Shown one piece after another: positions 9,991 through 59,299 of a stretch of 64,000 nt of DNA. The stretch is taken from assembly GCA_030603365.1 (NCBI GenBank), contig JAUVXV010000013.1, positions 32,001 through 96,000 on the forward strand, written 5' to 3'. The position numbers and the translations under genes were made by a program. Origin of the DNA: Candidatus Heimdallarchaeota archaeon (GTDB lineage Archaea > Asgardarchaeota > Heimdallarchaeia > Heimdallarchaeales > Heimdallarchaeaceae). Every line of letters begins with the position of its first letter. Positions within the stretch are counted from its first letter, which is position 1. The notes beneath the pieces are model-generated. The model saw nothing but the letters and a program-made list of their open reading frames with translations. It searched no databases and was not told the DNA's origin.

Positions 9991-11499
9991 ATGGAATCAT
10001 TATCAGATACAAGAGTTATTGACCTTGGAATAAGAGGAGTTCAACGAAGGATTAAGGGCGCAAGAACCCAAACAGTGATTACACATGTAATTGGAAGATC
10101 GTTAGCAATAGGAGCTATAGCTTGGGTACTAGTGCAAATCTTCACTCTCATAGCCTTTGATGACCCTGCTAGATTCCCTGAAGGATATTTTATTGATTCA
10201 CTTTCATTCATTTTTGTGTTAATTGAGTTGATTGCTATTATAATATTTACTGCCCCATTGATGATTTTTGTTGCATTTCTAGGAGATGATGCATCGGGAA
10301 TTCTATTAGGTGCAAGAGCTTTCCTTACAGGAGACCTATTTGGTAGTATTAGTCCTCCATCTGGGGTGGATAGTAATCTGCTCTTTGGAAGTACAGCATT
10401 AGACATATTCTCACCATTTGTGTATCTTTTTGGTGGAGAAATACTCCAGCCACTAAGAATTGCAAATCGAGCATCATTCATGTTATTTTTCATAGTAATT
10501 CTAGTAATAGCTCTTGTAGCATTCCTGTTTAGAGCTGAGATGCGATCTGCTGCTGCTGCATTCATTAGTATACAAGTTATCATCTTTCATGGAAGTGTAC
10601 AACGACTGTTCAGTTCCAGCTTTAGTTTCTCACCAACAAATAATATAGGGGAGCTCTTTTCGAACAGTGTAGTTCTGATTGCACTCTCGTCGTACTTATT
10701 CCTAGAAATAGCTTTACAAATCTCGTATATCTCGCAGCTACTCAATCCAGCGCAAAGTAGACAACAGCGTGTACTCAGAGCACTTACTAGATTAAATGAT
10801 TTTAGGCTTGGAGTAACAACAAGTCCAGCTCAGCAACAAATTGTGACTGCTGAATCCGATGAAGATGGTGACGAACGACAGTCTACAAAATCTATTGGAA
10901 GCACGGGGAGTTCTATTGCACGTAAATTTGGTGTTGCGGGAATGACTTATTTCTTAGAAAAAGCTTCTGATTCATTATTTTCTCGTCCAGGCGGACAACA
11001 AGATAAACTAACTTCAAGGTTACAGAGATACCATGATGGTTTAGTACACAGTGATCCAAGAGTAGATGAGAAGCTTGTTGGAGCAGAAGTTACAGTTAAA
11101 CCACTAATGACAATAGTATATGTACTCACATCAGTCGTGTTTAGAGTTTTCATAATGTTAGCAGGATTGTATGCAATACTTAATCCAAATGTTTTATTAT
11201 TTGTTTTAAGATATCCAGAGCCAATTTACAATTCACTAGAGATGTTGCAACCTGAGGGAGTAGTGTTATTACTCATTCCTATTGTAGTAATAATCTTATT
11301 GCTTACTTCTCTAATTGGCTTCATACAAGAAAGATTCTCAAAAAGATTTGAAGATGCTCTAGACCCAATGTTAGCTGACCAAGAATTCTATGAAGAAGAA
11401 CTTCCAGGGATTATTACAGAAGGAGAGTTAGAACCTATAACTGAAGAAGAGATGTTTTATGATAGACTCTCTGAAGAATTTGGGGAAGAAGAAGATTAA
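9991..11499 (+). CDS. Multi-pass membrane protein, last gene of MoxR operon
   Basis: Many hydrophobic segments, acidic tail, 6 bp after the DUF58 gene. Confidence 0.7.
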   Translation: MESLSDTRVIDLGIRGVQRRIKGARTQTVITHVIGRSLAIGAIAWVLVQIFTLIAFDDPARFPEGYFIDSLSFIFVLIELIAIIIFTAPLMIFVAFLGDDASGILLGARAFLTGDLFGSISPPSGVDSNLLFGSTALDIFSPFVYLFGGEILQPLRIANRASFMLFFIVILVIALVAFLFRAEMRSAAAAFISIQVIIFHGSVQRLFSSSFSFSPTNNIGELFSNSVVLIALSSYLFLEIALQISYISQLLNPAQSRQQRVLRALTRLNDFRLGVTTSPAQQQIVTAESDEDGDERQSTKSIGSTGSSIARKFGVAGMTYFLEKASDSLFSRPGGQQDKLTSRLQRYHDGLVHSDPRVDEKLVGAEVTVKPLMTIVYVLTSVVFRVFIMLAGLYAILNPNVLLFVLRYPEPIYNSLEMLQPEGVVLLLIPIVVIILLLTSLIGFIQERFSKRFEDALDPMLADQEFYEEELPGIITEGELEPITEEEMFYDRLSEEFGEEED

Positions 11500-54059: not shown

Positions 54060-54497
54060 TCATTCAGTATTGTCTTGTCCAGCTTTCACAGGAATTTCTT
54101 CGGGAGTGGTGGCTGGAACTTCTGCTTTGTCCTCAACAGGGACACTAACAGGAGTGGGACGAACAGAAATGGGTTCAACTCCAAGTTTTTGTAGTGTTTT
54201 AGTATACTCATCAGTGAGGAAGAAATCTTTCAGAACAATCCAACTAGTAGGGATGATAACTGGAAGCTTACCTATACCTTCTGCACAAGAATGAGAAATC
54301 TCATCAAGGGATTCTTTTTTATCAACAGTACCGCATTTTAGACAAATCTTCCAACGAGCAGATCGTTGATAGAGCTTCTCAACGGTTTCATTATAAATTT
54401 CAAAACCTGAACTTAAAGGAGCATCTTGCAGGTCAAGTGTAAAACGACGGGCTCGAGATTTTATTTGTGTTTTCTCAGCATCTTTGACATCTGGCAT
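54060..54497 (-). CDS. Uncharacterised CxxC...HxC (putative Zn-binding) protein, paralogue 1
   Basis: LYQRSARWKICLKCG...HSC...PVIIPTSWIVLKDFF, shared with three other ORFs. GGAGG SD upstream. Confidence 0.85.
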   Translation of the reverse strand: MPDVKDAEKTQIKSRARRFTLDLQDAPLSSGFEIYNETVEKLYQRSARWKICLKCGTVDKKESLDEISHSCAEGIGKLPVIIPTSWIVLKDFFLTDEYTKTLQKLGVEPISVRPTPVSVPVEDKAEVPATTPEEIPVKAGQDNTE

Positions 54498-55490: not shown

Positions 55491-55610
55491 GTGATAAATC
55501 TAGCTCTCTTAAAACCTAATCCCGCTTATACCCTTCCTGGGTATAGCGATTTTTTACGATCACTAAGAAAATTACTAGAATTGAAAACAAAAGAAAATAG
55601 AGGTGTCTAA
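55491..55610 (+). CDS. Possible 39-aa microprotein
   Basis: GTG after GAGGA. (M)INLALLKPNPAYTLPGYSDFLRSLRKLLELKTKENRGV, stop 1 nt before the next ATG. Confidence 0.35.
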   Translation: MINLALLKPNPAYTLPGYSDFLRSLRKLLELKTKENRGV

Positions 55611-55611
55611 T

Positions 55612-55764
55612 ATGGCAAACAAAGTTGTAAATATAAGAAGAAAAATGAAATATGAAAAAATGAAAGAGAATGCATGGAAAGTTATGGGATATGCATTTTT
55701 ATTTACCCTATTAATGGTATTGGGGCTCATAACCTTAACTGCTTTATCAAATTTCTTACTTTAG
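55612..55764 (+). CDS. Single-TM microprotein (family B, copy 1), 50 aa
   Basis: GAGGTG SD. MANKVVNIRRKMKYEKMKENAWKVMGYAFLFTLLMVLGLITLTALSNFLL. Confidence 0.7.
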   Translation: MANKVVNIRRKMKYEKMKENAWKVMGYAFLFTLLMVLGLITLTALSNFLL

Positions 55765-55939
55765 AAATTTGACACTTTTTTTAATTTTTATTACATTCAG
55801 TTACCGATTTTTAGAAATATATTGTTTCTATGTTGAAATTGTGTAGTAATATTTGAACACACATCTATTCAAATCCGCTTCTAATGCTTATTTTGTAGGT
55901 GTTCCTAAATCTAAGGTAATTTGTGCCAACGGGCAAATG

Positions 55940-55968
55940 TTTATTAACATGTATGAGTTTATTCTACA
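55940..55968 (+). promoter_or_regulatory. TATA box plus TGT-N13-ACA operator upstream of paralogue 2
   Basis: TTTATTAA-ca-TGTATGAGTTTATTCTACA-t, 13 nt before ATG 55982. Confidence 0.55.
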
Positions 55969-55981
55969 TGAGTAACGTAAT

Positions 55982-56410
55982 ATGACCGACATGACCAATG
56001 CTCGAAAAAAAGCAGTTCGATCTAGAGCAAGACGTTTTACGCTAGATCTATGGGATGCTCCGCTTGATTCAGGCTTAGAACTTTATCAAACAATAATTGG
56101 TGAATTATATGAAGGGTCATCAAGAATTAGACTTTGTTTAAAATGTGGCGCTATTGATTCTATTCAAGATCTTAAGAAAGATAACCACGCTTGTGCTCTT
56201 TCATTTAAGAGTTTTCCAGTTTTAGTAACTACAAGTTGGAAACTATTATCTGACTTCTTTCTAACAGGTAGATATGTTGAAGCCTTGCAACATCTTGGTG
56301 TTGAATTAGGCGTACGAGAAGTTGTTACTGTTCCAGTTGAGACAACTCCTGAAGTACTTACTACTATTGAAGAACAAGAAACTGCACGTGTATCTGTGTC
56401 AGATAAGTAA
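55982..56410 (+). CDS. Uncharacterised CxxC...HxC protein, paralogue 2
   Basis: RSRARRFTLDLWDAPL...CLKCG...HAC...PVLVTTSWKLLSDFF. Confidence 0.85.
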   Translation: MTDMTNARKKAVRSRARRFTLDLWDAPLDSGLELYQTIIGELYEGSSRIRLCLKCGAIDSIQDLKKDNHACALSFKSFPVLVTTSWKLLSDFFLTGRYVEALQHLGVELGVREVVTVPVETTPEVLTTIEEQETARVSVSDK

Positions 56411-56593
56411 GTTTTTTTAACTTTTTCCTTCAATTTTTTATGTGTTTTTGAGTATAAAATACCCCTTTTTTCTATTTGTTTTCCGACATCTTCGGCCATA
56501 TTTGCCTCTATTTTCTTATTGATTTACTGTGGTCGTATGTGCAATACAATGCACTAACGACCCAGAAAGGTTGTTTTTTACACCTAAAAAAGA

Positions 56594-56663
56594 TGTCTGA
56601 AGAAATCAGACAATTCTTTCTTCTAAAAATGCCTTTATATATGATGTCGGAGTAAGTCAGACA
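56594..56663 (+). promoter_or_regulatory. Two TGTC(T/G)GA-N5-TCAGACA operators flanking a TATA box (cassette 2)
   Basis: TGTCTGA-agaaa-TCAGACA (56594-56612), TTTATATA (56634-56641), TGTCGGA-gtaag-TCAGACA (56645-56663). Confidence 0.7.
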
Positions 56664-56688
56664 TAGAAAAACCCAAGGTGTAAAAAAA

Positions 56689-56838
56689 ATGACCAACAAC
56701 GAACTTTCCAGAACACTGGACCAAGAGATCAGGGCGCTCCAAAAGGAGTTAAACGAGCTTAAAAGAGCTCGCAGAGCCCTTCGAGCTAATACACGCTCAG
56801 AACGATTGCTAACTCAGCGCATTCCCCTTGCGGGATGA
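56689..56838 (+). CDS. Coiled-coil/Arg-rich microprotein (family A, copy 3), 49 aa
   Basis: CCAAGGTG SD. MTNNELSRTLDQEIRALQKELNELKRARRALRANTRSERLLTQRIPLAG, a clear paralogue of 55021-55167. Confidence 0.75.
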   Translation: MTNNELSRTLDQEIRALQKELNELKRARRALRANTRSERLLTQRIPLAG

Positions 56839-56885
56839 GCTGGGTCTTCAATCCCTTTCATAAAACTGAAACGGAGGTGTAAAGT

Positions 56886-57038
56886 GTGTTAAGTCTGCCC
56901 CGATTTATTTACAGAATTAAGGTTGAAAAACCATGTGTCTATCTCTGGAGAATGCTAAGAATTGCATTACCATTGTTTGTAGCAGGTATAGTCGCAGTAA
57001 TTGGTTTAGCTCCTGAATTTGCTAGAGTAGTTATATAA
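56886..57038 (+). CDS. Single-TM microprotein (family B, copy 2), 50 aa
   Basis: GGAGGTG SD, GTG start. (M)LSLPRFIYRIKVEKPCVYLWRMLRIALPLFVAGIVAVIGLAPEFARVVI. Confidence 0.68.
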   Translation: MLSLPRFIYRIKVEKPCVYLWRMLRIALPLFVAGIVAVIGLAPEFARVVI

Positions 57039-57084
57039 AATGAAGAAAAGTGTCCCCCACTTTTCCTTTCATTTATTTATTTAC

Positions 57085-57251
57085 GATTATCATCCCATCC
57101 AAGAACTCACGCTGTTTGTATCTTGCTGAACAGACAAACCTGCAGAGCTCACCATCTGCTTGGGATCAGGAAACAACAAACTCTTACTAACCCAGAGCTT
57201 GTGTGCTACCGTCTGTTTCCTGATCCTTTCCATTTCTTCAGGATGATAATC
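57085..57251. ncRNA. Candidate structured RNA (multi-stem, unknown family)
   Basis: 11-bp closing stem 57085-95/57241-51, 13-bp stem 57163-75/57214-26, and further hairpins 57114-39, 57142-59 and 57176-57202. Confidence 0.55.
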
Positions 57252-57304
57252 AGATTTGAACTCACTAGAGACTTAAAACATGGATCACAAAAGAGGTGTA
57301 AAAA

Positions 57305-57448
57305 ATGATTGGTAACGAAAGAAATTTTGTTCGAAGATTTAAGATAGAAAGAACACTCTCCATTACTTGGAGGTTAATCATCTACATAATTTCTTTGACA
57401 GTAATTGTTGTTACAGGGATTTTTTCCCTATCTGTAATATCCAATTAA
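57305..57448 (+). CDS. Single-TM microprotein (family B, copy 3), 47 aa
   Basis: GAGGTG SD. MIGNERNFVRRFKIERTLSITWRLIIYIISLTVIVVTGIFSLSVISN. T-rich terminator at ~57478-57510. Confidence 0.7.
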   Translation: MIGNERNFVRRFKIERTLSITWRLIIYIISLTVIVVTGIFSLSVISN

Positions 57449-57555
57449 GAAAATATCATGATGAGAATTAGTCCTTTCATCTTTTTTTTTTTTCTTCTTC
57501 TTTATTTCTAGCAAAAGAGAGTGAAAATAAATTTCGTAGGAAGTTTATTACACTT

Positions 57556-58665
57556 TTATGGTATTAACCATTTTCCTGCCTTATAGATTTCTTTTCCATC
57601 CAAATAAATTACTGAATCTTCGCTTTTCATATCCTTGAGTATGTCCCAGTGTATTGGTTATTCATTTTTTGAACCAACCTCTGCAAATCCTGAACCTAGT
57701 GCTAGGTGTACAGTTCCTCCCATTTTCTCATCGAAGAGCATATTCTTTGTAAATTTCTGAATTCCGTAATTTGTTCCAATTGCTACTTCTCCTAGAATAT
57801 CGGCGTTTTCCATTTCCAGAACTTTTTCCAATATCTCTTGTCCCTTTGATGCTGTATATTCAACTACCTTACCATCTTTGAACTTTAACCAAATATTTTC
57901 AACTTCTTTACCCATATAGATACCTGGATAGGTAAAACGGATTGTCCCATTTACTGAGTCTTCGACTGGGGATGTGAATACTTCACCATCTGGTAAATTC
58001 TTATCTCCGCAAGCATTAATCCACCCTCTTCCATCGATGCTTAAAACTAAATCAGTGTCTTCTCCGACGATACGTAACTCCTTACCTTTTCTCAACACTT
58101 CTACTATTGCTTCTTGTTCTTTCTTAACATTTAACCAATGCTCAACAGGATCTTCTTTATCTAGTGCAAGTGCCTTGTAAACAAATTCTTTGTATTCAAA
58201 AGACCCCATATTAGCTTCTTGAGCAAAAGCAGGTGAAGGATATGGACAGATTACCCAATCTAATTCTCCTGAAGCAGATCTCTCAAAATATATTTTTGTG
58301 AGTTCTTTATTTGCTTCTCTTGTCATCATTTGTTTGTCTGGACTAATATTGGTAAGTGCTTTTCTGTTAGTGGAGCTAAATACACTGATGAATTTGTCTG
58401 CTAGTTTTATCCCCTGTAAAGCAATAGGGTTTTGATATTTTAGCTGATGCTCTTGCGCATGTGTGTAAAATAACTCATCTTGACCTGGGATAACTATCCT
58501 AATGTTTAGTATGTGTCCTCCAGTTTTAATAACTTCCAAATCTATCTCGCGAATCAAGTCTGCTGCATCAATTCCACCTGAGAGTAGAACAGTGTTTCCT
58601 TTCTCGACTCTCACTGAATAGTTAACAACAAGTTTTGCTAGTTTTTCATTAAAATCATCTAACAT
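57556..58665 (-). pseudogene. M29 (AmpS/AmpT thermophilic metallo-) aminopeptidase interrupted by in-frame TAA at 57658-57660
   Basis: NLPDGEVFTSP, GEVAIG, LFDEKMGGTVHLALG. After the TAA the same frame continues PIHWDILKDM...KAGKWLIP to a stop at 57556. Confidence 0.8.
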
Positions 58666-58828
58666 ATTTTTACCTTCCTACTACATCAAAAAGCTGAACC
58701 ATTATAAGTTTTGCAGAATCAAGATATATTATTGATTTATGTCTTTCAGAAATTTTTATGTTGTTATTACATATGCAAATATACATTAATATGTTACAAA
58801 TAATAGGTACATAAGAGTGGTGAGACTT

Positions 58829-59299
58829 ATGCCCAAAATATCGAAAGCTGAACAACAATTTATACGCTCTCTCGCTAAGAAATATGTCATGAAACTTATA
58901 GTTTCTCCATTTAACGAGGGGTTGTTAATTTATTCTGATACATATGATTCATTATATATTCGATCAGCAAGATGGAAATTCTGTTTAAAATGTGGTGAGA
59001 TAGAGTCTACTGAAGAAATGTTAGATGAACACGAATTAAAGAAAATGGGTGCTTCTGACCGAAAACAAGCACAAGAAAGAGTACATCAGTGTACAATGGG
59101 TATAAATCACTTTCCAGTGCTTATAACAACTTCTTGGTACAAATTGAAAGACTTCTTTATGACAGACAAATATGTCAAAGCTCTTGAGAATGCAGGAGTT
59201 AAGGATATTCCATTTCAGAAGCCTATCTTTGAGAAGGTACCTATAAAGGTCAAAGCAGAAAAAGCTCGTGAAACAGTTATGCAAGATAGTACTGCTTAA
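58829..59299 (+). CDS. Uncharacterised CxxC...HxC protein, paralogue 3
   Basis: LYIRSARWKFCLKCG...HQC...PVLITTSWYKLKDFF. ATG at 58829 after GGTGA. Confidence 0.85.
   Translation: MPKISKAEQQFIRSLAKKYVMKLIVSPFNEGLLIYSDTYDSLYIRSARWKFCLKCGEIESTEEMLDEHELKKMGASDRKQAQERVHQCTMGINHFPVLITTSWYKLKDFFMTDKYVKALENAGVKDIPFQKPIFEKVPIKVKAEKARETVMQDSTA

What the first reader, a model, noticed from the sequence alone, without database searches (positions are those of the whole stretch)
57085..57265. ~167-nt multi-stem candidate RNA with a repeated RCTNAC motif in unpaired regions
Seen in sequence: a perfect 11-bp closing stem (GATTATCATCC/GGATGATAATC) encloses hairpins GTTTGT/ACAAAC and GCAGA/TCTGC and a 13-bp stem GGATCAGGAAACA/TGTTTCCTGATCC capped by a 9-bp stem. 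The single A-C mismatch of that cap becomes G-U on the minus strand, weakly favouring minus-strand transcription. Unpaired segments repeat ACTCAC (57105), GCTGAAC (57125), GCTCAC (57147), ACTAAC (57186), GCTAC (57205) and ACTCAC (57260). An alternative pairing TCCAAG/CTTGGG competes with the long stem. Inference: an antitoxin or sponge sRNA presenting repeated protein-binding loops, or a switchable 5' leader for the 57305 peptide.
Basis: partly seen in the sequence, partly recalled or inferred. Interest (0 to 1): 0.72.

Follow-up and report, generated by a model that had tools for sequence, protein, structure and literature searches.

The report
Conserved structured leader before archaeal microprotein gene
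The hairpins are real and form a conserved, previously undescribed RNA-like element that sits in front of a tiny membrane-protein gene in one genus of Heimdall (Asgard) archaea; it is most likely part of that gene's messenger RNA and controls it, but no transcript data exist yet.

Summary
The conserved unit is smaller than reported. It comprises three hairpins (H1 57113-57136, H2 57142-57159, H3 57163-57226).

- **Conservation:** the core is 85% identical among four orthologues (H1 100%), against 63% at neighbouring third codon positions.
- **Not conserved:** the 11-bp closing stem, the TCCAAG/CTTGGG alternative pairing and most RCTNAC sites.
- **Host:** an archaeon; all named relatives are Candidatus Heimdallarchaeota MAGs.
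- **Distribution:** I found 19 distinct instances in three subtypes, in 12 of 25 genomes of one genus. No convincing match appeared in 58 other genomes of the class, and Rfam has no match.
- **Gene coupling:** the element lies 140-195 nt upstream of the start codon of a 47-50 aa tail-anchored membrane microprotein. Fifteen of 19 such genes have it, and 15 of the 16 element copies found in the genome search precede one.
- **Promoter:** no TATA-like box lies between the element and the gene.

Best reading: a cis-acting structured leader or intercistronic RNA on the + strand. Strand, transcript ends and mechanism are inferred, not shown. It is not a MITE (two copies, both inside a duplicated 1.3-kb gene cassette). 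The scan had noted this same stretch before in overlapping windows, but not on other DNA.

The parts
56886..57038 (+). ORF C, a 50-aa microprotein with a C-terminal TM helix; the gene upstream of the element in subtypes I and II
   Evidence: Conserved at protein level in the paralogue and the orthologues.
57045..57065 (+). Hairpin after the ORF C stop, followed by a T/pyrimidine-rich tract; a probable (partial) terminator of the upstream genes
   Evidence: Scored as terminator-like on both strands. The stem is kept in subtypes I and II, with GAAAAG/CTTTTC changing to GAAAGG/CCTTTC in one relative.
57070..57079 (+). Conserved CATTTAT / TTTATTTA box, a candidate TATA box about 26 nt before 57101
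   Evidence: Conserved in subtypes I and II. Its role as a promoter is inferred only.
57085..57095 (+). 5' arm of the 11-bp closing stem (specific to this lineage)
   Evidence: Present. Not conserved.
57113..57136 (+). Hairpin 1: a 9-bp stem with one bulge and an invariant UUGCU loop; the most conserved part of the family
   Evidence: 100% identical in four orthologues. The 5' strand and loop are invariant in all subtypes. One pair switches U-A to A-U between subtypes, and two instances have U-A changed to U.G.
57142..57159 (+). Hairpin 2: a 5-bp stem with loop GCUCACCA
   Evidence: Kept as a 4-6 bp hairpin with a different loop and register in subtype II. Broken in G016 and absent in one subtype III instance.
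57163..57226 (+). Hairpin 3: a 13-bp perfect stem, a 9-bp cap and an 11-nt 3' internal loop holding GUGUGCUNC
   Evidence: It is the longest perfect inverted repeat in 24 kb. The GGAUC(A/G)GG 5' strand is invariant in all instances. The interior differs completely between subtypes, yet each forms a long hairpin. Compensatory changes are seen.
57227..57240 (+). Pyrimidine tract after hairpin 3 (CCUC/CUUC words complementary to the SD core)
   Evidence: Present in subtype I and, as the loop of hairpin 4, in subtype II. It is the predicted SD partner in subtype I only.
57241..57251 (+). 3' arm of the closing stem
   Evidence: Similarity to the C11 paralogue ends at 57238, before this arm.
57293..57298 (+). 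Shine-Dalgarno GAGGUG of ORF D
   Evidence: Complementary to the genome's 16S 3' end GGAUCACCUCCU. Conserved in relatives.
57305..57448 (+). ORF D, a 47-aa tail-anchored TM microprotein; the gene the element precedes
   Evidence: Family alignment A10. Fifteen of 19 family genes in the genus have the element upstream.
57482..57493 (+). T12 run, the likely archaeal terminator of the ORF D transcript
   Evidence: Read directly from the sequence. The terminator role is inferred.

Best explanation
The conserved three-hairpin core (about 57101-57240) is the structured 5' leader, or intercistronic segment, of the + strand mRNA for the tail-anchored microprotein ORF D (57305-57448).

**Transcript model (inferred).** Transcription would come either from the conserved CATTTAT box at 57070, or by read-through of the hairpin and T-tract after ORF C, from the ORF B promoter (TTTATATA near 56634).

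**Proposed mechanism (inferred).**
- The invariant parts are the hairpin 1 loop and 5' strand, and the GGAUCAGG strand of hairpin 3.
- A UGCUR word in the hairpin 1 loop recurs in the apical part of hairpin 3 in most instances.
- These parts are recognition sites for a trans factor that sets how much of the downstream microprotein is made. That would work through translation, RNA stability or read-through.
- The likeliest factor is one of the basic proteins encoded in the same cassette.

**Shown:** the structure, its conservation, its restriction to one genus and its coupling to the gene.

**Not shown:** the strand, the transcript ends, the factor and the regulatory output.
For: **Constraint.**
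- The core is 0.85 identical among four orthologues and hairpin 1 is 1.00. Codon position 3 is 0.63 and the downstream spacer 0.51.
- Indels of 1, 2 and 5 nt rule out coding.

**Same architecture in three diverged subtypes.**
- All have hairpin 1, a fixed spacing of 32 nt in most instances, and GGAUCAGG opening a long hairpin whose interior is unrelated in sequence between subtypes.
- The core folds with z -2.6 to -4.0 on the + strand.

**Pair changes that keep structure.**
- Hairpin 1: U-A to A-U.
- Hairpin 3, pair 13: A-U to G-C.
- Subtype II inner stem: A-U / G.U / G-C at one position.
- Hairpin 4 is rebuilt with many changes on both sides.
- In subtype II, 96% of cells pair, against 37-41% when partners are slid.

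**Coupling to the gene.**
- The element and the microprotein family occur in the same 12 of 25 genomes.
- Fifteen of 19 family genes have the element upstream, and 15 of 16 element copies precede one. The distance from hairpin 1 to the ATG is 140-195 nt.

**Promoter position.** The cassette's clear TATA boxes lie about 50 nt before their ATGs. None lies between the element and ORF D, which has a true SD.
Against: - No transcript evidence exists, because no RNA run could be listed.
- An unbiased G.U against A.C tally does not resolve the strand: 11:18, 27:25 and 19:16. The consensus energy of subtype I is slightly better on the - strand.
- Formal covariation is thin because the sequences vary little: 1 to 4 covarying pairs per subtype, and the shuffle control for covarying pairs reached the observed value in 28 of 500 runs.
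- No consistent expression platform was found. The SD is predicted masked in subtype I but more open than with shuffled leaders in subtypes II and III.
- The C11 paralogue keeps the element at 84% identity although no microprotein gene follows it.
- Four family genes lack the element.
Confidence: 0.55

Rival explanations
1. A stand-alone small RNA on the + strand. It would be made from its own promoter at the CATTTAT box, or cut out of the operon transcript. It would end in the pyrimidine tract after hairpin 3 and act in trans, as a protein-binding or base-pairing sRNA.
For: - The C11 paralogue keeps the core but has no downstream microprotein gene, and a T5 run lies 25 nt after hairpin 3.
- Similarity between the paralogues ends right after the pyrimidine tract.
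- A UGCUR word occurs in the hairpin 1 loop and again in the apical part of hairpin 3 in most instances.
Against: - No oligo-T terminator follows hairpin 3 in subtypes II and III.
- No unusual complementarity to the initiation regions of cassette genes was found. The one outlier was an artefact.
- Position and orientation relative to the downstream gene are fixed in 15 of 16 copies.
Confidence: 0.15
2. An antisense RNA made from the - strand that overlaps the leader of the ORF D mRNA. It would resemble a type I antitoxin controlling a small membrane peptide.
For: - The - strand folds about as well: z -3.6 for the core and -3.8 for the full stretch.
- The cap A.C mismatch becomes G.U on the - strand.
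- Subtype I consensus energy is -41.2 on - against -37.2 on +.
- The hairpin at 57043-57067 also scores as a - strand terminator.
- The downstream gene encodes a 47-aa hydrophobic peptide.
Against: - No conserved promoter-like box on the - strand lies to the right of the element. That spacer is only 0.51 identical.
- The T-tail of the - strand terminator is poor in G023.
- Subtypes II and III fold better on +, and one variant gives z -3.8 on + against -1.7 on -.
- Toxicity of the peptide is untested, and three paralogous peptides sit in operon-like cassettes, which is unlike known type I pairs.
Confidence: 0.1
3. A DNA-level regulatory region: operator sites or a cruciform-forming sequence bound by a cassette-encoded regulator, with no role for an RNA structure.
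For: - The sequence invariance of the hairpin 1 5' strand and of GGATCAGG is stronger than pairing alone would need.
- A palindrome (GATCAACC-N8-GGTTGATC) sits between the CATTTAT box and hairpin 1 in subtype II, where an archaeal repressor would bind.
- Earlier notes describe palindromic operators in this cluster.
Against: - The constraint runs continuously over 130 nt.
- Long inverted repeats are kept in three subtypes although their sequences are unrelated.
- Changes such as A-U to G.U to G-C fit RNA pairing better than protein-binding sites.
Confidence: 0.07
4. The ~167-nt four-way junction closed by the 11-bp stem, is the functional unit and presents RCTNAC loops as a protein sponge.
For: - The closing stem is perfect in the window and nearly so in G023 and G020.
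- Strict RCTNAC words are enriched in the window copy, with P about 0.004.
Against: - The closing stem is absent in G016, in the C11 paralogue and in subtypes II and III. It evolves at the background rate and shows uncompensated changes.
- Such repeats are common locally.
- Only 2 of the 6 motif sites are invariant even within subtype I.
- If transcription starts about 26 nt after the CATTTAT box, the 5' arm lies outside the RNA (inference).
Confidence: 0.05

Closest known systems
Structured cis-regulatory mRNA leaders bound by a protein (for example ribosomal-protein autoregulatory leaders, archaeal L7Ae or L1 binding to their own mRNAs, and lambda N with the boxB hairpin)
   Same: A conserved hairpin with an invariant small loop lies in the untranslated region directly before an SD and start codon. 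Small, very basic proteins are encoded next to it.
   Different: No binding protein has been identified and no K-turn or boxB-like signature is present. There are three hairpins, with a very long third one. The family is restricted to one genus of Heimdallarchaeota, and the regulated product is a 47-50 aa tail-anchored membrane microprotein.
Leaders of bacterial type I toxin mRNAs (hok, tisB, zorO)
   Same: A long, highly structured 5' untranslated region (about 200 nt) precedes a gene for a hydrophobic single-TM peptide of under 60 aa.
   Different: - The host is an archaeon.
- No antitoxin RNA or promoter for one was found.
- SD occlusion is not consistently predicted.
- The peptide has a basic N-terminal half and a C-terminal anchor.
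- The peptide genes occur as paralogous sets inside larger cassettes.
Riboswitches
   Same: A multi-stem conserved element upstream of the regulated gene, more conserved than the coding sequence next to it.
   Different: - There is no match to any Rfam family.
- Conservation sits in the hairpin strands and loops rather than in a junction core.
- No terminator or SD-sequestering platform is shared by the subtypes.
- The taxonomic range is very narrow, and the regulated gene has no metabolic link.
Retron msr-msd non-coding RNA
   Same: In the window copy, terminal inverted repeats enclose small hairpins and one long hairpin.
   Different: The neighbouring genes annotated here include no reverse transcriptase, and Rfam has no match. 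The terminal inverted repeat is not conserved, and the host is an archaeon.
MITE-like DNA repeats
   Same: Inverted repeats, and more than one copy in the genome.
   Different: Only two copies exist, each the tail of a 1.3-kb duplicated gene cassette, with no target-site duplication. A true multi-copy mobile element does exist in these genomes, and in one relative it has inserted into the leader. It is unrelated in sequence.

Membership tests
Any Rfam 15 family | A score at or above the family's gathering threshold | tested here: not met
   There were no matches in the whole window or in four loci holding subtypes II and III. The best sub-threshold hits were 13-23 bits with E above 1.
Cis-regulatory structured leader | Lies on the same strand, directly upstream of the regulated gene, with no promoter in between | tested here: met
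   The distance from hairpin 1 to the ATG is 140-195 nt in 15 of 16 copies. No TATA-like box lies between the element and ORF D. This rests on position only, because the transcript has not been mapped.
Cis-regulatory structured leader | A conserved secondary structure supported by covariation | tested here: inconclusive
   The architecture is kept in three subtypes with unrelated hairpin 3 interiors, and several compensatory pairs are seen. Only 1 to 4 covarying pairs per subtype were counted, and the shuffle controls are weak.
Cis-regulatory structured leader | An expression platform (a terminator or SD-sequestering helix that alternates with the sensor fold) | tested here: inconclusive
   The probability that the SD is unpaired is 0.00-0.33 in subtype I, against 0.13-0.62 in subtypes II and III, where it is mostly higher than with shuffled leaders. 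The proposed competing helix is not conserved.
Type I toxin-antitoxin system | A small hydrophobic toxin peptide | tested here: inconclusive
   ORF D is 47 aa with one TM helix. Toxicity was not tested.
Type I toxin-antitoxin system | An antisense or divergent antitoxin RNA with its own promoter | not testable with these tools
   No RNA run was listed. No conserved - strand promoter-like box was seen.
MITE / mobile DNA repeat | Many dispersed copies with terminal inverted repeats and target-site duplications | tested here: not met
   The genome holds two copies, each embedded in a 1.3-kb paralogous cassette. The hairpin 1 word occurs nowhere else in the genome.
Retron msr-msd | An adjacent reverse transcriptase gene and conserved a1/a2 inverted repeats | tested here: not met
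   The neighbours are microprotein genes, an M29 peptidase and a DEAD-box helicase. The closing inverted repeat is not conserved.
Protein-coding sequence | A reading frame preserved among relatives | tested here: not met
   Indels of 1, 2 and 5 nt occur inside the core among close relatives.

The most novel reading that the evidence does not exclude
The leader is the RNA half of a lineage-specific RNA-protein switch. One of the cassette's own basic proteins would bind the invariant hairpin 1 loop and the GGAUCAGG strand of hairpin 3. That binding would gate synthesis of the tail-anchored membrane microprotein. The candidates are the Arg-rich coiled-coil 49-aa protein and the C2HC zinc protein. 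Each paralogous cassette (subtypes I-III) would have its own matched leader. This would be a self-contained post-transcriptional circuit of a kind not described in Asgard archaea.
Probability: 0.15. Interest if true: 0.75.

Novelty: new variant of a known kind. Interest (0 to 1): 0.5.

Why it matters
Very few structured regulatory RNAs are known in archaea, and I found none reported for Asgard archaea. This element is a well-delimited, strongly constrained candidate, conserved more tightly than the genes around it. It is tied to a family of tail-anchored membrane microproteins that exists only in one Heimdallarchaeota genus. If it does control these genes, it gives a small testable system of about 130 nt of RNA and a 47-aa product. 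That system could be used to study post-transcriptional control and microprotein biology in the archaeal lineage closest to eukaryotes. Its narrow range and the lack of any transcript data limit what can be claimed now.

Tried and rejected
- **RNA evidence:** no RNA holder was listed for 56880-57460, so neither expression nor strand could be checked.
- **Rfam:** nothing was found at gathering or permissive thresholds.
- **tRNA/tmRNA:** none in the window.
- **Bacterial promoter and terminator reading:** dropped once the host proved to be an archaeon.
- **Strand from G.U against A.C:** a first count on + strand structures looked decisive (57:12). It was biased, and the unbiased union of pairs gives no answer.
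- **Anti-SD switch:** not consistent across subtypes.
- **Trans targets among cassette initiation regions:** nothing was found. One outlier (z -3.2) was an artefact with no underlying similarity.
- **C/D box, H/ACA, K-turn and bulge-helix-bulge signatures:** looked for by eye in the sequence and not found (inference, no tool).
- **MITE, retron and coding readings:** rejected; see the membership tests.
- **Family libraries:** Pfam, PHROGs and NCBIfam give nothing for ORFs A to D. ORF A has only 15 relatives, none with a Pfam domain or an informative name.
- **Literature:** a full-text search found nothing on structured RNAs of this lineage.

Full report
**Observation.**
- The 181-nt stretch folds at -55.4 kcal/mol on the + strand (z -5.7 against dinucleotide shuffles) and -60.7 on the - strand (z -3.8).
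- The window contains no Rfam family at gathering score and no tRNA. A permissive Rfam scan of 56500-57900 gave only chance-level hits.

**Host.**
- The genome's SSU rRNA scores 1298 bits on the archaeal model and 1047 on the bacterial one.
- Every named contig that carries the element is a Candidatus Heimdallarchaeota MAG.
- Promoters should therefore be read as TATA boxes and terminators as T-runs.
- The 16S 3' end reads GGAUCACCUCCU, so the GAGGUG words before the small genes are true SD sites.

**Context.**
- The element is the tail of a 1.3-kb segment (55915-57238) that is duplicated on contig C11 at 73-81% identity.
- That segment encodes ORF A (142 aa), ORF B (49 aa, coiled coil with an Arg-rich tail) and ORF C (50 aa, C-terminal TM helix), followed by a hairpin with a T-rich tract.
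- ORF A, the 145-aa ORF at 54060-54497 (-) and the 160-aa ORF at 58817-59299 (+) are paralogues.
- None of these proteins matches Pfam, PHROGs or NCBIfam. ORF A has only 15 relatives in 5.8 billion clusters.
- ORF D (47 aa, tail-anchored) lies downstream of the element, behind a strong SD.

**Conserved unit.**
- Syntenic orthologues in three species of the genus, plus the paralogue, give a five-way alignment.
- Pairwise identity among the four orthologues is as follows:

| Region | Identity |
|---|---|
| Core 57101-57232 | 0.85 |
| Hairpin 1 | 1.00 |
| ORF C / ORF D third codon positions | 0.63 |
| Spacer before the SD | 0.51 |
| Closing-stem arms | 0.66 and 0.58 |

- The closing stem is missing in G016 and in the paralogue, whose similarity ends at 57238.
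- The stem carries uncompensated changes in G023.
- Perfect inverted repeats of this size are common locally.
- The TCCAAG/CTTGGG alternative exists only in the window copy.
- Indels of 1, 2 and 5 nt exclude coding.

**Family and range.**
- A covariance model of subtype I found weaker full-length matches in five more species, all in the same gene order.
- A scan for the shared words (the hairpin 1 word, 28-36 nt, then GGATCAGG) found 10 genome and 4 metagenome stretches.
- Together these give 19 distinct instances in three subtypes.
- A second model, built on the part shared by all subtypes, found the element in 12 of 25 genomes of the genus. It found none in the 6 genomes of the family's other genera, and one marginal 26-bit hit among the other 52 genomes of the class.
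- In the window's genome, the hairpin 1 word occurs only at the two copies.

**Structure.**
- All subtypes have hairpin 1, with a 9-bp stem and a UUGCU loop.
- Most have a short hairpin 2, whose loop and register differ between subtypes.
- All have a long hairpin 3 that opens with GGAUC(A/G)GG. Its interior is unrelated in sequence between subtypes.
- The core z-scores on + are -3.8 (I), -4.0 and -3.8 (II) and -2.6 (III).
- Changes that keep pairing:
  - hairpin 1, U-A to A-U between subtypes, and U-A to U.G in two instances;
  - the 13th pair of hairpin 3, A-U to G-C;
  - a subtype II inner pair seen as A-U, G.U and G-C;
  - a fourth hairpin before the SD in subtype II, rebuilt with many changes.
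- In subtype II, 96% of cells pair, against 37-41% after sliding partners. Only four pairs covary, and shuffles are a weak control because variation is low.
- The evidence for selection on pairing is therefore good at the level of architecture and modest at the level of formal covariation.

**Strand.**
- Counting G.U against A.C on structures predicted on the + strand looked decisive, but that count is biased.
- On the union of pairs predicted on both strands, the tallies are 11:18, 27:25 and 19:16.
- Consensus energies favour - in subtype I and + in subtypes II and III.
- The strand is inferred from the gene context described next.

**Coupling to the gene.**
- A 47-50 aa tail-anchored microprotein of one family follows the element in every subtype.
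- A profile of that family hits strongly in exactly the 12 genomes that carry the element.
- Fifteen of its 19 genes have the element upstream, one of them displaced by an insertion.
- Fifteen of the 16 element copies found in the genome search precede such a gene.
- Clear TATA boxes of the cassette (TTTAAATA, TTTATATA) lie about 50 nt before their start codons. None lies between the element and ORF D.
- An mRNA for ORF D must therefore start upstream of the element and carry it on the + strand.
- The start would be either the conserved CATTTAT box at 57070, which would leave the 5' arm of the closing stem outside the RNA, or the ORF B promoter with read-through of the hairpin and T-tract.
- Internal terminators inside archaeal operons are documented in Methanococcus maripaludis (PMC10450193; abstract as listed).

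**Mechanism.**
- I could not find a shared expression platform. The SD is predicted masked by the pyrimidine tract in subtype I, but it is more open than with shuffled leaders in subtypes II and III.
- No trans target emerged.
- The invariant features are the hairpin 1 loop and 5' strand and the GGAUCAGG strand.
- A UGCUR word sits in the hairpin 1 loop and recurs in the apical part of hairpin 3 in most instances.
- Sequence-level invariance beyond what pairing needs points to recognition by a factor. The basic proteins encoded alongside are the obvious candidates, but this is inference.

**Exceptions.**
- The C11 paralogue keeps the core at 84% identity. It has lost the loop-closing pair of hairpin 1, and it is followed by a T5 run and about 210 nt of non-coding DNA rather than a microprotein gene.
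- Four family genes, including the window's own at 55612, lack the element.
- In G012, a 355-nt copy of a multi-copy mobile element splits the leader between hairpins 3 and 4.

**Verdict.**
- This is a real, strongly constrained, genus-restricted structured element with no known family.
- It is best read as a cis-acting leader of a microprotein gene.
- It is not a MITE, a retron RNA or a coding sequence.
- Strand, transcript ends and function need transcript mapping and binding tests.

Noticed in passing
L018:1152-1506 (G012:C41:109823-110177); also G000:C15:200737-201071, and G000:C7:132153-132329 (outside the window): A 355-nt insertion splits the leader between hairpins 3 and 4 in G012, whose sequence here is otherwise about 99% identical to G018. 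It appears to be flanked by a CACG direct repeat. It is a multi-copy element with 11-12 matches per genome in G000 and G012. Its first ~85 nt are the most widely repeated part, and matches often lie at contig ends. Rfam has no match.
   Followed up: partly
window 56574-56585: TTTTTTACACCT is a perfect 12-nt complement of the initiation cassette AGGTGTAAAAAA. That cassette precedes ORF B (56676-56687) and ORF D (57294-57305). On a + strand read-through RNA it would act as an anti-SD. On the - strand it reads as a cassette with no obvious start codon after it.
   Followed up: partly
L020:1470-1530 (-), i.e. G000:C8 near 10098-10160: By eye, the 16S rRNA 3' end carries an extra stretch of about 32 nt between the CUGCGG of the last helix and the terminal GGAUCACCUCCU. 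It could be a small insertion or an intron-like element. I did not check it against an alignment.
   Followed up: no
window 57045-57065 and equivalents in L014, L017, L029, L035: The hairpin after the ORF C stop is conserved in subtypes I and II, with one compensatory change (GAAAAG/CTTTTC to GAAAGG/CCTTTC). A long pyrimidine/T tract follows it. This looks like an intrinsic-terminator-like signal in an archaeon.
   Followed up: partly
L017:1490-1513 and equivalents (subtype II): A hairpin or palindrome, GATCAACC-N8-GGTTGATC, lies between the CATTTAT box and hairpin 1. One relative keeps it through a double change that includes a G.U. It could be an RNA hairpin or an operator overlapping the transcription start.
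   Followed up: partly
L029, L027 and L035 (two element copies about 1.6 kb apart on one strand): Several relatives carry a subtype III and a subtype II element in tandem, each before its own microprotein gene. The window's first cassette has lost its subtype III copy. At 55524-55556 it has instead a 10-bp hairpin followed by a T6 run.
   Followed up: partly
window 54060-54497 (-), 55982-56410 (+), 58817-59299 (+): Three paralogues of one protein family of 140-160 aa, with no Pfam, PHROGs or NCBIfam match, flank the microgene cassettes. ORF A has only 15 relatives in the large protein collection, none with an informative name.
   Followed up: partly
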